Positions 59,766 to 61,702 of a stretch of DNA of 64,000 nucleotides are shown one piece after another (position 1 is the stretch's first letter; every line of letters begins with the position of its first letter). Origin of the DNA: a virus (Duplodnaviria; Caudoviricetes); IMG/VR virus record IMGVR_UViG_3300009031_000221, positions 192,001-256,000 of that record; one strand, written 5' to 3'. The notes under the pieces are model-generated. The model ran no database searches. It was not told the origin of the DNA and worked only from the letters and a program-made list of their open reading frames with translations. A program made the position numbers and the translations under genes.

Positions 59766-59904
59766 TGGGGTTTTGGGAGTTGAACCCAAGCTTGTAAGCT
59801 TCATATGGTGGCATCCTAGAGCATTGCGGCTATCGGATGCCGAGTAACGAAGCAGGTTACCTTCGAGTGTGAATCAAAGTGCCGAACCGTTCGGCGTAAA
59901 CCCC
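59766..59904 (-). ncRNA. tRNA-like RNA D (Val CAC loop) with module in the variable arm
   Basis: Acceptor GGGGUU/AACCCC; loop UUCACAC; insert GCUUC..ACUCGGC..GCC..GAAGC. Confidence 0.7.
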
Positions 59905-59917
59905 AATTGAGAAACAG

Positions 59918-60066
59918 TGAACCCGCCAGGATTCGAACCTGGATACATGCGTGTGGGCTTTCCTGATTGGCTCAATGTCTTCTCACGAAGGCACAGAGCC
60001 GAGAATGAAAGCCTTTGCTAAAGCAATCTACAAAAAGATTGTGTCCTACCATTGGACGACAGGCTC
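59918..60066 (-). ncRNA. tRNA-like RNA E with module in the variable arm
   Basis: Acceptor GAGCCUG/CGGGUUC; 8-nt anticodon loop; insert GGCUUUC..CUCGGC..GCCAAUC..GAAAGCC-CACACG. Confidence 0.7.
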
Positions 60067-60184
60067 ATTTGAACAGGTATCGCTACCAATCCCGCCATGG
60101 GAGGTTGGTCAAGTCTGGTGACCATCCTGTTCTCAACATCGGTAGTCAACCGTTTAACATTCCATCCGACTAACCAATGGAATG

Positions 60185-60327
60185 TGGAGAGGGTGGAGGG
60201 ATTCGAACCCTCGTACAAGGCGTGTGAGTTCGTTCAGTTTTCATGGCATTGCTGCCACGAGAGTAGATGAACTGTTGCTTAAAACAGCTTGGAAATAGCT
60301 GCGTCCTAACCGCTAGACGACACCCTC
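60185..60327 (-). ncRNA. tRNA-like RNA F with module in the variable arm and encoded CCA
   Basis: Acceptor GAGGGUG/CACCCUC-U-CCA; loop AUUUCCA; insert ends GAACU-CACACG. Confidence 0.7.
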
Positions 60328-60537
60328 AGTTGCTAGTCTTTCCTAGCTGTCAACAAATGATTGAGCATGTGCCCGGATTTTTACCGGATTGTTCCCTCAC
60401 GGGAAGAGGCTTGACAACAAGAGGGAACTCTGATGGTTGTTCGTTGTACACCGTACAACCATACTCGTTTTTTCTCTTGCCCAGATTACAGGACTCAGGC
60501 GATCAATCCTTTGTCTTTCGTCCATTAGCCGAACACA

Positions 60538-60614
60538 TGGTAGCGGGAGTGGGATTTGAACCCACGAACTCTTGGGTATGAACCAAGCGAGATACCGGAC
60601 TTCTCCATCCCGCA
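60538..60614 (-). tRNA. tRNA-Met(CAT), initiator-like 1:72 mismatch
   Basis: Loop UUCAUAC; encoded CCA. Confidence 0.8.
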
Positions 60615-60715
60615 AACAATGACCCCATCCGATTCGCCGATCTGGGTCGTCTTCGCTAGTTCACGTCGTTTTAGCCGACATCGCAACATGGTCATGCATT
60701 GTGTCTATTTCCACC

Positions 60716-60760
60716 GTCAAGGGTCTTTGCCTCTTGTCAAGGGTTCTTTGCCTCTTGTCA
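60716..60760. repeat. About 2.3 tandem copies of a 20-21-bp unit containing TTGACA on the minus strand
   Basis: GTCAAGGGT(T)CTTTGCCTCTT repeated. Confidence 0.8.
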
Positions 60761-60949
60761 GCAGTCTATTCCCGCTGTCTTTCCGGCCATCTGCAGATAG
60801 TACCGGAAACTGTCATTAGAGACCCCAGCCGGGTTCGAACCGACTTCCGCAAAGCGGACGACCAACCGGTTTTCCCGGGTGGGGCATAGATGCCCTTGTG
60901 AGATACCCACTTCTCCCCTTGTGAGGGAATGATAGGGCGAACCATTTAG

Positions 60950-61100
60950 CGGGGATTGAAGGAGTTGAACCCTCATAGCTTGTACGCTTCGCGTTTGGTT
61001 TGGTTCCCATAAGGCCTTGCGAGCCAAGGAACCGAGTTTTGAAGCGTGTTGAAATTGCTTTTCAGGCAAGTGCCAGAACACCATACTGGCGTGAATCCCC
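60950..61100 (-). ncRNA. tRNA-like RNA H (Phe GAA loop) with module in the variable arm
   Basis: Acceptor GGGGAUU/AAUCCCC; loop CUGAAAA; insert GCUUC..ACUCGGUUCC..GGAACC..GAAGC. Confidence 0.7.
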
Positions 61101-61242
61101 GTTGTGCCCAATGAGGGCTATTGAACAAGACACTAGAAGTTGACGCGCCCCGGAATTACACCGGATAAGGTCTAGAACCTACAGTTCATCTCACCCATGA
61201 TCATAAGTGAAGGCTGGCAGGAATACTGCTACGCGACAAGGC

Positions 61243-61382
61243 TGGGGATGTTGGACTTGAACCAACGACAAGAGGCTTAAAATGCGTGTAAATTCTTGGC
61301 GATTGGTTGTTCCCTGACCCACAAGGAGCCTAGGAACGAGTTGCCGAATTAATTTCTCTGCTCTACCACTGAGCTAATCCCC
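61243..61382 (-). ncRNA. tRNA-like RNA J with module replacing the anticodon loop
   Basis: Canonical D and T arms; insert AAUUC-GGC-AACUCGUUCC..GGAAC..GCC..GAAUU-UACACG within the anticodon stem. Confidence 0.7.
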
Positions 61383-61562
61383 AATTTTGCTGGTCTTTCC
61401 CAGCGGTCATCCACGTAGCGGTTTGACGCGGTACGTGAAGTAGTGGAGTACCGGAGTGCCCGATCCACTCTCTTAGCGTCCGGTGAATTCACATTCATTC
61501 GGATTACACCCCGATGCTTGAACACACGGCGTTGTTCTCAACATTCGGCTAACACTGTTAAG

Positions 61563-61702
61563 TAACGGAGGTGGGAGTCGAACCCACAATTCGTGTAAGT
61601 TTCACGATTTGTCCCTTCCTTGCGGTTGGGACGAGTTGCGAAACTGGGGCTTTTTGTGTTTGATCTAAAAGTCAAATGCCTTTACCGTTTGGCTACTCCG
61701 TC
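61563..61702 (-). ncRNA. tRNA-like RNA K (Lys-like 8-nt loop) with module in the variable arm
   Basis: Acceptor GACGGAG/CUCCGUU; insert AGUUUC..ACUCGUC..GACAAAU..GAAACU-UACACG. Confidence 0.7.

What the first reader, a model, noticed from the sequence alone, without database searches (positions are those of the whole stretch)
59766..61702. tRNAs carrying a conserved Y-RNA-like stem as an insert: a circularly permuted Y RNA family
Seen: six minus-strand elements (59766-59904, 59918-60066, 60185-60327, 60950-61100, 61243-61382, 61563-61702) have real tRNA termini, D arms and T arms but a 65-90-nt insert. The inserts differ in sequence yet share one architecture: a 5-7-bp stem (RGYUUC/GAARCY), an internal loop with invariant CUCG opposite A-rich AAUC/AAAC/ACCA, a second stem with a variable hairpin, then YACACG or UACAAG before the T arm. 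Five inserts are in the variable arm; in 61243-61382 the insert replaces the anticodon loop. Established: bacterial YrlA Y RNAs join a Ro60-binding stem to a tRNA-like domain whose acceptor stem is closed by a loop. Inference: these are the opposite permutation, with an open acceptor end (one encodes CCA) and a looped Ro-binding stem. They could be Ro60-tethered tRNA mimics or baits for host anticodon nucleases, or evolutionary intermediates between tRNA and YrlA. The different anticodon-like loops (Val CAC, Phe GAA, Lys-like, Glu-like) suggest a panel of decoys.
Basis: partly seen in the sequence, partly recalled or inferred. Interest (0 to 1): 0.95.

Follow-up and report, generated by a model that had tools for sequence, protein, structure and literature searches.

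The report
Phage tRNA mimics carrying Y-RNA-like arm
A 536-kb phage encodes tRNA look-alikes that each carry the same conserved two-helix RNA arm, which also forms the end-stem of neighbouring Y-RNA-like genes beside a hidden Ro60-like protein gene; hundreds of copies of this undescribed RNA family occur in related huge phages.

Summary
All six elements are complete tRNA cloverleaves with 7-bp acceptor stems. Each carries a 53-68 nt module: C, stem 1, NNN-CUC, G-stem 2 hairpin, A/C-rich strand, stem 1', Y-ACA-(A/C)-G-C. The window holds ten copies. A covariance model built only from other phages finds six of the seven closed copies at E 1e-6 to 6e-3. It finds 112 more in 63 related huge-phage loci, 110 on the strand of one conserved gene. 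All 13 base pairs covary (score 0.82; controls 0.26 or less).

The same module occurs in four topologies:
- closed hairpin in the variable arm;
- closed hairpin in the anticodon arm;
- open 5'/3' stem on an exactly permuted tRNA with a capped acceptor stem;
- open stem at the acceptor end (three window neighbours).

The conserved gene has no Pfam TROVE hit, but its fold matches Ro60 best. RtcB lies 11.8 kb away.

Only 46% of module-bearing bodies have a canonical anticodon loop, against 93% of ordinary tRNAs. They are probably mimics, not decoders.

They are not YrlA by Rfam (26.5 bits or less; cut-off 69) and lack the GNCGAA motif. Ro binding is inferred, not shown. I judge this a new variant of the Y RNA kind. 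The same scan also noted this array in an overlapping window.

The parts
59766..59904 (-). E1: tRNA-like body (Val-CAC loop, canonical 7 nt) with closed module 59791-59853 in the variable-arm position
   Evidence: Fold; R1 35.9 bits, E 1e-6; ARAGORN Val-CAC after virtual deletion of the insert
59918..60066 (-). E2: tRNA-like body with a non-canonical U-rich anticodon loop (6 or 8 nt) and closed module 59950-60013 in the variable-arm position
   Evidence: R1 32.0 bits, E 9.6e-6; ARAGORN reports a 4-nt 'anticodon'
60185..60327 (-). E3: tRNA-like body (Glu-UUC, C37) with closed module 60221-60273 in the variable-arm position; encoded 3' CCA
   Evidence: Rfam tRNA 41.7 bits across the insert; R1 20.7 bits, E 0.006
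60950..61100 (-). E4: tRNA-like body (Phe-GAA) with closed module 60979-61046 in the variable-arm position
   Evidence: R1 22.9 bits, E 0.0017; ARAGORN Phe-GAA after virtual deletion
61243..61382 (-). E5: tRNA-like body whose lower anticodon stem and loop are replaced by an 81-nt insert holding module 61285-61350
   Evidence: Rfam tRNA 43.3 bits with the 81-nt insertion inside the anticodon arm; descriptor match; R1 only partial, E 1.2
61563..61702 (-). E6: tRNA-like body with an 8-nt anticodon loop and closed module 61592-61645 in the variable-arm position
   Evidence: Rfam tRNA 47.8 bits; R1 31.5 bits, E 1.3e-5
18093..18235 (+). E7: seventh closed-module tRNA-like element (module 18149-18205), in another tRNA cluster on the other strand
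   Evidence: R1 24.8 bits, E 5.8e-4
59616..59762 (-). Y1: Y-topology RNA. The 5' and 3' ends form the module (10-bp terminal stem, AACA/ACUC loop, second stem, CACACG) around a tRNA-like core with a 3-bp acceptor
   Evidence: Unconstrained MFE fold; Rfam tRNA 39.6 bits over model positions 5-66 only; descriptor
59463..59604 (-). Y2: Y-topology RNA around a degenerate tRNA-Ile(AAU)-like core
   Evidence: MFE fold; descriptor; its terminal stem differs from Y1 and Y3 with compensating changes
59293..59436 (-). Y3: Y-topology RNA around a tRNA-Lys(UUU)-like core
   Evidence: MFE fold; descriptor
55951..57849 (-). Divergent Ro60/TROVE-like protein (632 aa): N-terminal beta domain, helical ring-like domain, C-terminal vWA. 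Candidate partner of the module
   Evidence: Foldseek full-length top hits are Ro60/TROVE, E 3e-8 to 1e-5. Helical domain alone: top 3 of 48,161 chains are Ro60, Z 9.4/8.8/8.6. vWA Z 14.7. No Pfam TROVE hit and no PDB sequence hit
42773..44179 (-). RtcB RNA ligase, same strand, 11.8 kb downstream of the Ro-like gene
   Evidence: Pfam RtcB E 2.7e-89

Best explanation
The six elements belong to a large, undescribed family of huge-phage non-coding RNAs. Each is built from two parts: a tRNA-like body and a conserved two-helix module of stem, 4-6 nt internal loop and stem. The loop carries an invariant CUC, and an invariant ACA-containing single strand follows the module. The helix sequences are free while a few loop and flank bases are fixed, which marks the module as a recognition site for a protein.

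In these six, the module is a closed hairpin. It projects from the variable-arm position in five and from the anticodon-arm position in one. The acceptor end stays open. In the three neighbours at 59293-59762 the same module is opened at its apical loop and forms the 5'/3' terminal stem, the classical Y RNA layout. In related phages it forms the terminal stem of exactly permuted tRNAs whose acceptor stem is capped by a tetraloop.

The most likely partner is the divergent Ro60-like ring protein encoded 1.4-3.9 kb downstream on the same strand. By analogy with Ro60 and Y RNA, the module would hold that protein. The tRNA-like body would engage tRNA-binding factors such as host anticodon nucleases, RtcB, processing enzymes or PNPase. 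The RNAs would then act as tethers or decoys, not as decoders.

Shown: the family, its structure, the four topologies, the linkage to the gene, the gene's fold and the degenerate anticodon loops. Inferred: binding to the Ro-like protein and the tether or decoy role.
For: (1) Structure. All 13 modelled pairs show double compensatory changes across 98 distinct copies. The covariation score is 0.816, against 0.26 for shuffles and 0.14 or less for slid partners. The first alignment gave a similar result.

(2) Independence. R1 was built without window sequences yet recovers the window copies.

(3) Modularity and permutation. Four topologies carry the same module. MFE folds give the Y topology for the three window neighbours without constraints. 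There are 26 distinct permuted-tRNA forms and 35 acceptor-end forms in relatives. The Y descriptor hits 82 times on the gene's strand, against 1 on the other strand and 8 and 3 in reversed and complemented controls.

(4) Partner. The Ro60 fold is the best match, both full-length and for the helical domain alone.

(5) Linkage.
- 110 of 112 modules lie on the gene's strand.
- 41 of 45 full loci have modules within 10 kb.
- In five whole contigs (2.5 Mb), all 13 strong hits lie within 10 kb of the gene, upstream in some and downstream in others.
- In the complete 536-kb genome, hits occur only at window 59.5-61.7 kb.
- Of 80 IMG/VR loci picked by a DNA pattern alone, the only four with R1-confirmed modules lie on contigs that carry the gene.

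(6) Context. RtcB is on the same strand, as in the bacterial rsr-yrlBA-rtcBA locus (PMC4201824, PMC7790460).

(7) Mimics. Only 45 of 97 bodies have a 7-nt loop with U33 and R37, against 879 of 950 ordinary tRNAs in the same loci. The phage already encodes ordinary Val-CAC, Glu-UUC and Phe-GAA tRNAs.
Against: - No binding data and no RNA data exist; only groundwater DNA runs hold the sequence.
- The module lacks the GNCGAA(N)G/CGAA motif that known bacterial and phage Y RNAs use. No element reaches the YrlA cut-off.
- The protein is Ro60-like only at fold level, with moderate scores (Z about 9, TM 0.3-0.4), so its RNA specificity is unknown.
- The gene sits inside a giant tRNA array in every relative. 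Part of the linkage could therefore be 'tRNA-like genes live in the tRNA array'. Within +-10 kb the modules are only moderately closer to the gene than ordinary tRNAs: median 3.6-3.8 kb against 5.2 kb, closer in 23 of 33 loci.
- All module-bearing contigs belong to one phage clade, so co-occurrence is confounded by descent.
- One partial genome, Rctr197k, has the gene but no R1 hit.
Confidence: 0.55

Rival explanations
1. The module is a recognition or stability element for some other factor and has no functional tie to the Ro-like protein. Candidates are another phage protein, RNase III/E/P-type processing of the tRNA array, or an exonuclease block. The linkage would only reflect residence in the tRNA array.
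For: - About 20 bp of irregular helix with an internal loop resembles phage RNase III processing signals (my own knowledge of T7 sites, not tested here).
- The Ro-like gene lies inside a tRNA array in all loci.
- Distance enrichment within +-10 kb is modest.
- The canonical Ro-binding motif is absent.
- A related phage encodes its own RNase P RNA.
Against: - Ordinary tRNAs in the same arrays, 950 by ARAGORN, lack the module. It is therefore not a general maturation signal.
- The bodies that carry it are selectively degenerate in the anticodon loop or lack an acceptor stem.
- Modules cluster in the 4% of each genome around the gene although tRNA arrays extend further.
- The Y layout next to a Ro60-fold gene and RtcB matches a known system.
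Confidence: 0.2
2. The elements are unusual pre-tRNAs. The closed module would be an intron, and the permuted forms would be permuted tRNA genes. A phage or host endonuclease would cut at the base of stem 1 and RtcB would ligate, giving functional tRNAs, as with permuted tRNA genes of red algae and archaea.
For: - RtcB is encoded on the same strand.
- Exactly permuted tRNA forms exist in relatives.
- Stem 1 brings the conserved flanking C and the YACAMG tail together.
- 97 of 107 bodies are called tRNA once the insert is deleted in silico.
Against: - There is no bulge-helix-bulge motif.
- The complete genome holds no EndA-type splicing endonuclease, while the archaeal controls are positive.
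- Excision would leave 15 or more unpaired linker nucleotides instead of a 4-5 nt variable loop.
- More than half of the bodies have non-canonical anticodon loops, including 2- and 4-nt 'anticodons' and non-U33.
- E5 has no anticodon arm at all.
- Acceptor-end forms keep only 1-3 acceptor pairs (45 of 65).
- Permuted forms cap the acceptor with tight loops of 4-5 nt, such as UUCG, in at least 9 of 26.
- Ordinary isoacceptors are already encoded.
Confidence: 0.12
3. They are working decoder tRNAs with a giant variable arm. The arm might serve as an identity element for a phage enzyme, or as a means to escape host tRNA-targeting defences.
For: - The six have complete 7-bp acceptor stems, D arms and T arms.
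- Three of the six have canonical anticodon loops: Val-CAC, Phe-GAA and, nearly, Glu-UUC.
- One encodes CCA.
- 45 of 97 family members have canonical loops.
Against: - The arm is 53-68 nt, far longer than any class II variable arm (my own knowledge). It carries 8-13 nt single-stranded linkers on both sides.
- The canonical-loop rate is half that of ordinary tRNAs.
- The same module also occurs on bodies that cannot be charged, with capped or missing acceptor stems.
Confidence: 0.05

Closest known systems
YrlA (Rfam RF02553), the bacterial and phage Y RNA with a tRNA-like domain (Chen et al. 2014, PMC4201824; Wang et al. 2018, doi 10.1101/312249)
   Same: - Modular RNA: a stem, internal loop and stem joined to a tRNA-like domain with D and T arms.
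- Encoded beside a Ro60-type gene and near rtcB.
- Several paralogues per locus.
- The permuted relatives share the order T arm, capped acceptor, D arm. They give a partial YrlA hit over model positions 30-81 (26.5 bits).
- The 3'-side loop ACUC-G resembles the YrlA consensus AcUuG.
   Different: - No element reaches the cut-off of 69 bits.
- The 5'-strand motif GNCGAA(N)G is absent.
- The module leaves from the variable-arm or acceptor position, not from the anticodon stem, except in E5.
- A full anticodon arm is kept.
- The six elements have an open acceptor end and a closed module, the reverse of YrlA.
Deinococcus radiodurans Yrn1 Y RNA
   Same: The terminal Ro-binding stem takes the place of the acceptor stem, with D-like, anticodon-like and T arms inside (described in PMC4201824). 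The window's Y1-Y3 have this layout.
   Different: The stem and loop sequences differ. Yrn1 keeps the metazoan-like conserved helix. No closed-hairpin or permuted forms are described for Yrn1.
Thermus phage phiLo Ro60 with Yrl1/Yrl2 (PMC12135203; PDB 9KOP, 9L5Y)
   Same: A phage-encoded Ro60 with phage-encoded Y-like RNAs upstream of the gene. phiLo Ro60 is among the top structural matches of the window protein.
   Different: The phiLo Yrls were picked by a CGAA motif in an internal bulge and have no tRNA body with an open acceptor end. The window protein is 632 aa with an extra N-terminal beta domain and has no detectable sequence similarity.
Circularly permuted tRNA genes (Cyanidioschyzon merolae and some archaea; cited in doi 10.1101/312249)
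   Same: In the relatives' permuted forms the 3' half comes before the 5' half, and the transcript's ends pair in a stem.
   Different: Those are cut at a bulge-helix-bulge motif and matured into working tRNAs. Here there is no BHB motif and no EndA. The acceptor caps are tight tetraloops and the anticodon loops are often degenerate.
Class II tRNAs (Leu, Ser, Tyr, Sec) with a long variable arm
   Same: The extra helix emerges between the anticodon and T arms.
   Different: Class II arms are short hairpins of 3-9 bp. Here the arm is a 53-68 nt two-helix module with conserved loop and tail motifs and long single-stranded linkers, on bodies of many isotypes (Val, Glu, Phe, Met, Gly, Asn, Gln and others).

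Membership tests
YrlA (RF02553) | Covariance-model score at or above the gathering cut-off (69 bits) | tested here: not met
   Window: one hit of 16.3 bits, not on any of the six. Whole 536-kb genome: best 25 bits. Six related loci: none at gathering level. Permuted relative in L008: 26.5 bits, model positions 30-81 only.
YrlA (RF02553) | GNCGAA(N0-1)G motif near the 5' end, the proposed Rsr-binding site (PMC4201824) | tested here: not met
   The column profile of 98 distinct modules shows no such motif. The equivalent strand (stem 2', loop, stem 1') is variable. One window paralogue (Y2) has UCGAAUGC inside its terminal stem, but relatives do not conserve it.
YrlA (RF02553) | tRNA-like domain with T and D arms and an acceptor stem closed by a loop | tested here: not met
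   T and D arms are present, but the six elements have open 7-bp acceptor stems. Closed acceptors occur only in the permuted relatives (26 distinct).
YrlA / Y RNA in general | Encoded next to a Ro60 orthologue | tested here: met
   A gene with a Ro60-like fold lies 1.4-3.9 kb downstream on the same strand. Linkage holds in relatives. The orthology rests on fold only, not on sequence.
Y RNA in general | Bound by Ro60 in vivo or in vitro | not testable with these tools
   No RNA-protein prediction tool is offered, and no RNA runs hold the sequence.
tRNA (RF00005) | Cloverleaf recognised by tRNA models | tested here: met
   Three of the six score 41.7-47.8 bits (cut-off 29) despite the insert. 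All five variable-arm elements are called by ARAGORN after virtual deletion. ARAGORN on the native sequence calls none of the six.
tRNA (RF00005) | Canonical 7-nt anticodon loop with U33 and purine 37, as a working decoder needs | tested here: inconclusive
   Window: canonical in E1 and E4; C37 in E3; 6- or 8-nt loops in E2 and E6; no loop in E5. Family: 45 of 97 against 879 of 950 ordinary tRNAs.
Ro60 / TROVE protein family (for the 55951-57849 gene) | Sequence match to the TROVE domain or to solved Ro60 proteins | tested here: not met
   Pfam gives only a weak VWA_2 hit, E 1.4e-4, below cut-off. NCBIfam and PHROGs give nothing. phmmer and profile searches against PDB give no Ro60.
Ro60 / TROVE protein family (for the 55951-57849 gene) | Helical-repeat ring domain followed by a vWA domain | tested here: met
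   Full-length Foldseek top hits are 9KOP, 9NFA, 2NVO and 1YVP, with 527-557 aligned columns. Swiss-Prot top hits are Ro60 of frog, Deinococcus, human and worm. The helical domain alone gives 2NVO Z 9.4, 1YVP Z 8.8 and 9L5Y Z 8.6, with 245-261 residues aligned and the next hit at Z 6.5. The vWA domain reaches Z 14.7. Model pLDDT is 78-81 and pTM 0.53, so ring closure is not established.
Archaeal-type tRNA intron / permuted pre-tRNA | Bulge-helix-bulge motif at the splice sites and an EndA endonuclease | tested here: not met
   The module has a symmetric internal loop, not two 3-nt bulges 4 bp apart. PF01974 is absent from the complete genome and present in four archaeal controls.
Any other Rfam family | cmscan hit on the insert | tested here: not met
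   A permissive scan (E up to 10) of 59200-62100 gives only tRNA and noise.

The most novel reading that the evidence does not exclude
Huge phages keep a panel of Ro-tethered tRNA decoys. One protein-binding module is grafted, in four interchangeable topologies, onto tRNA bodies of many isotypes. In those bodies the anticodon is kept but U33 or the loop length is altered. The Ro60-like ring protein, perhaps with RtcB, would be brought to host anticodon nucleases or other tRNA-targeting defence or quality-control factors, which would be trapped or neutralised. The free permutation would show directly that Y RNAs are two-module tethers and that they arise from tRNAs. Both are long-standing proposals.
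Probability: 0.22. Interest if true: 0.92.

Novelty: new variant of a known kind. Interest (0 to 1): 0.85.

Why it matters
Y RNAs are an old puzzle. Their Ro60-binding stem is understood, but the purpose and origin of the second, tRNA-like module in bacteria are not. This family gives hundreds of natural variants in which the same two modules are joined in four ways. These include complete tRNAs with a free acceptor end and their exact circular permutations.

That is strong comparative evidence that the two parts work as independent modules. It also offers ready-made constructs for testing what each part binds.

The family points to a widespread Ro60-like protein (more than 1,700 homologues) that sequence tools label only as 'vWA' or 'hypothetical'. 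Ro60/Y RNA systems in viruses are therefore probably much under-counted.

tRNA-gene finders miss all of these genes; ARAGORN called none of the six. Counts of tRNAs and ncRNAs in huge phages are therefore incomplete.

If the decoy reading holds, this would be a new phage counter-defence principle.

Tried and rejected
- Rfam at gathering and permissive thresholds: no family other than tRNA on the inserts, and YrlA far below its cut-off.
- Sequence searches of the protein (Pfam, NCBIfam, PHROGs, PDB phmmer and profile): no TROVE or Ro60. Only fold comparison worked.
- Foldseek on the isolated helical domain: no significant hit, Ro60 at rank 17-19 with E about 0.5. The exhaustive VIA-align search was needed. 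pdb_via on the full model was swamped by vWA domains.
- MAFFT on the window's seven modules misaligned them. I built the model from the shorter modules of relatives instead.
- My first loose descriptor was no better than shuffles genome-wide, 19 hits against 8-25. It was useful only together with the T arm.
- Mobile-element or MITE reading: rejected. Copies share no sequence beyond the motifs, and their helices covary.
- H/ACA-guide-like reading (hairpin with pocket followed by ACA): considered. The architecture is similar, but the 'pocket' carries an invariant CUC rather than variable guides, and bacteria and phages lack the Cbf5 machinery. This rests on my own knowledge and was not pursued.
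- K-turn, loop E and known self-cleaving ribozyme cores: no match by inspection.
- RNA expression: only four groundwater DNA runs of one study hold the sequence, so retention or splicing of the insert could not be examined.
- The promoter and terminator scan was uninformative.
- The R1 hit at 59571-59644 is an artefact. It joins the 3' half of Y1 to the 5' half of Y2; their terminal stems pair only within each element.
- The GenBank phage collection holds one homologue of the protein (Rctr197k, 52% identity, annotated hypothetical) and no R1 module in that partial genome.
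Full report
**What is in the sequence**

The window is part of a complete 536,053-bp virus record from groundwater metagenomes. ARAGORN finds 53 tRNAs and a tmRNA in the 64 kb but calls none of the six elements.

Read on the minus strand, each element has a perfect 7-bp acceptor stem, a D arm and a GGUUCRA T arm, and is 139-151 nt long. The Rfam tRNA model aligns three of them end to end across the insert, at 47.8, 43.3 and 41.7 bits against a cut-off of 29. In 61243-61382 the 81-nt insertion lies inside the anticodon arm. In the others it lies between the anticodon and T arms.

The inserts share one plan:
- stem 1;
- a few bases ending in CUC;
- stem 2, opening with G and closed by a variable hairpin;
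- an A/C-rich strand;
- stem 1';
- then directly YACACG or UACAAG.

A seventh copy lies at 18093-18235 on the plus strand.

**More than chance, and not confined to this phage**

The protein at 55951-57849 has more than 1,700 homologues of about 60% identity on contigs of up to 536 kb. I fetched 63 loci around these genes from IMG/VR. They are giant tRNA arrays.

Simple pattern scans found the same insert architecture dozens of times. I aligned 29 short modules from relatives, with no window sequence, and built covariance model R1 from them.
- In the window, R1 finds E1, E2, E6, E7, E4 and E3 at E 1e-6 to 6e-3 and nothing comparable elsewhere.
- In the 63 loci (1.22 Mb) it finds 112 modules at E 0.01 or better, 110 of them on the strand of the conserved gene.

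On the 98 distinct sequences, all 13 modelled pairs show double compensatory changes. 88% of cells are paired. The covariation score is 0.816, against 0.26 for shuffles and 0.14 or less when partners are slid.

One caution applies. The first alignment came from a descriptor that required pairing, and the second was fitted to the model. The slid-partner controls and the recovery of unseen window copies are therefore the stronger evidence.

**The same module in four topologies**

A note of this scan (e1-5362085) proposed that three neighbours, at 59295-59762, wrap a tRNA-like core between paired ends. I tested this.

Unconstrained MFE folding gives the same layout for all three:
- a 10-11 bp terminal stem;
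- a 4x4 loop (AACA, CAAU or AAUA opposite ACUC);
- a second stem of 8-9 bp;
- YACACG;
- then D, anticodon and T arms and a small GCAA hairpin.

This is the module opened at its apical loop. The three terminal stems differ from one another with compensating changes.

A descriptor for this layout hits 82 times on the gene's strand in the 63 loci. It hits once on the other strand, and 8 and 3 times in reversed and complemented controls.

Sorting the hits gave two classes:
- In 35 distinct elements the order is tail, D arm, anticodon arm, T arm. The acceptor stem is reduced to 1-3 pairs in 45 of 65 scored hits. The window's Y1-Y3 are of this kind, which recalls Yrn1 of Deinococcus.
- In 26 distinct elements the order is tail, T arm, acceptor 3' strand, loop of 4-23 nt (tight loops of 4-5 nt, such as UUCG, in at least 9), acceptor 5' strand, D arm, anticodon arm, linker, stem 1, ACUC, stem 2. 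This is the exact circular permutation of the finding's variable-arm elements: closed at the acceptor and opened at the module.

The family thus joins the same two parts in four ways. That is the signature of a two-module RNA in which connectivity matters little.

**The neighbouring protein**

Sequence methods see only a weak vWA match. An AlphaFold2 model from 24 homologues (pLDDT 80.9) shows an N-terminal beta domain, a helical domain (residues about 106-428) and a vWA domain.

Foldseek's best full-length matches are Ro60/TROVE structures: phiLo Ro60, frog Ro60 and Deinococcus Rsr. E-values are 3e-8 to 1e-5 over 527-564 columns. The best Swiss-Prot matches are Ro60 of four species.

vWA hits dominate any whole-model re-ranking, so I folded the helical domain alone and compared it with all 48,161 PDB representatives. 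The top three are the three Ro60 representatives:
- 2NVO, Z 9.4;
- 1YVP, Z 8.8;
- 9L5Y, Z 8.6.

Each aligns 245-261 residues spanning the whole domain, and the next hit has Z 6.5 over 101 residues. Z about 9 is moderate for a helical repeat. The exclusivity of the top three and the same domain order make a divergent Ro60-like protein the best reading. RtcB lies 11.8 kb downstream on the same strand, as in the bacterial rsr-yrlBA-rtcBA locus (PMC4201824, PMC7790460).

**Linkage of module and gene**

- Own genome: in the 536-kb genome, R1 hits occur only at window 59.5-61.7 kb. Nine of the ten modules lie 1.4-3.9 kb upstream of the gene.
- Five other whole contigs (2.5 Mb): all 13 strong hits lie within 10 kb of the gene, sometimes upstream and sometimes downstream.
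- The four full loci without modules within 10 kb: three have them 12-16 kb away on the gene's strand, and the fourth has two by descriptor.
- Reverse test: of 80 IMG/VR loci chosen only by a DNA pattern, four held R1-confirmed modules. All four lie on contigs that carry the gene.

Limits:
- The gene always sits inside a tRNA array.
- Within +-10 kb the modules are only moderately closer to the gene than ordinary tRNAs.
- All contigs are of one clade.
- One partial genome, Rctr197k, has the gene and no R1 hit.

**Are the bodies working tRNAs?**

With the insert deleted in silico, ARAGORN of 107 bodies as tRNAs of many isotypes. These include Met 10, Gly 9, Tyr 9, Asn 8, Gln 5, Val 5, a UUA 'stop' anticodon 4, Phe 4 and Glu 4.

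Only 45 of 97 have a 7-nt loop with U33 and a purine at 37, against 879 of 950 ordinary tRNAs in the same loci. Typical cases keep the anticodon but change U33 (for example CGGUAAA or CGGUUAA) or the loop length. The phage also encodes ordinary Val-CAC, Glu-UUC and Phe-GAA tRNAs.

The same module also sits on bodies with capped or missing acceptor stems. Together these points argue that the bodies are mimics and not decoders.

**Comparison with known systems**

The closest kind is the bacterial and phage Y RNA with a tRNA-like domain (YrlA, Yrn1, phiLo Yrl).
- Shared: a stem, loop and stem plus a tRNA mimic, several paralogues, and a position beside a Ro60-type gene and RtcB.
- Different: no YrlA hit above 26.5 bits (cut-off 69); no GNCGAA/CGAA motif; attachment at the variable-arm or acceptor position; a retained anticodon arm; and forms with a free acceptor end.

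The 3'-side loop ACUC-G resembles the YrlA consensus AcUuG. That is a lead, not a test.

The intron or permuted-pre-tRNA reading is weakened in five ways:
- no bulge-helix-bulge motif and no EndA;
- long leftover linkers after excision;
- tetraloop caps on the acceptor;
- degenerate anticodon loops;
- truncated acceptor stems.

It is kept as a rival because RtcB is near and permuted forms exist. I found no paper describing such RNAs. Jumbo-phage surveys mention TROVE proteins only in passing (PMC7824862).

**Verdict**

The 'circularly permuted Y-like family' idea is supported by the relatives. Membership in YrlA is not supported. Binding by the Ro-like protein and any tether or decoy role remain inference, which I put at about 0.55. 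The same scan had flagged this array in an overlapping window and in neighbouring notes. Those notes gave me leads that I tested here; I do not count them as support.

Noticed in passing
L043:18017-18381 (+): A related huge phage encodes a full bacterial type-A RNase P RNA (299.5 bits, E 1e-96) inside the same tRNA array that holds the Ro-like gene and the module RNAs.
   Followed up: no
L001:8280-8413 and three other relatives: Four module-bearing tRNA-like bodies carry a UUA anticodon, which would read the UAA stop codon. About twelve others have 2- or 4-nt 'anticodons'. I did not examine whether any of them act as suppressors.
   Followed up: partly
window 33790-34190 (-): Phage-encoded tmRNA (145 bits; tag peptide ANDNVEFTSFAAAA) inside the tRNA array.
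   Followed up: no
window 21498-21586 (+): ARAGORN calls a tRNA with a 4-nt anticodon (tgaa) and undetermined isotype.
   Followed up: no
window 42773-44795 (-): RtcB (E 2.7e-89) lies immediately downstream of a minimal ThiF/E1-like protein (E 4e-18), 1 nt apart.
   Followed up: partly
window 57794-58555, 51962-53125, 45764-46492, 61924-62565, 50669-51919: Three HNH endonucleases, a PD-(D/E)XK nuclease and an SNase-domain protein lie among the RNA genes. The HNH gene at 57794-58555 overlaps the start region of the Ro-like gene.
   Followed up: no
E6 61563-61702; L002:8596-8726; L003:9403-9536; L004:16137-16276 and others: Many closed-module and permuted elements share a distinctive D arm: UAGCC, a loop with UAA-YGG-(U)AAA, then GGC-A, with a 3-bp stem. 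This suggests that the bodies as well as the module descend from one tRNA-like lineage.
   Followed up: partly
L064 (KX853510.1, Virus Rctr197k) 8983-10932: The only GenBank phage record with a homologue of the Ro-like protein (52% identity) annotates it as a misc_feature, 'similar to conserved hypothetical protein'. It sits in a 36-tRNA array. R1 finds no module anywhere in the 197-kb partial genome.
   Followed up: partly
window 60615-60950, 61100-61243, 61383-61563: Spacers of 140-330 nt between the module RNAs have no credible ORF and no Rfam hit. They contain short direct repeats such as TTGACAAGAGGCAAAGA at about 60730-60770. Their role is unknown; they could be promoters or further RNAs.
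   Followed up: no
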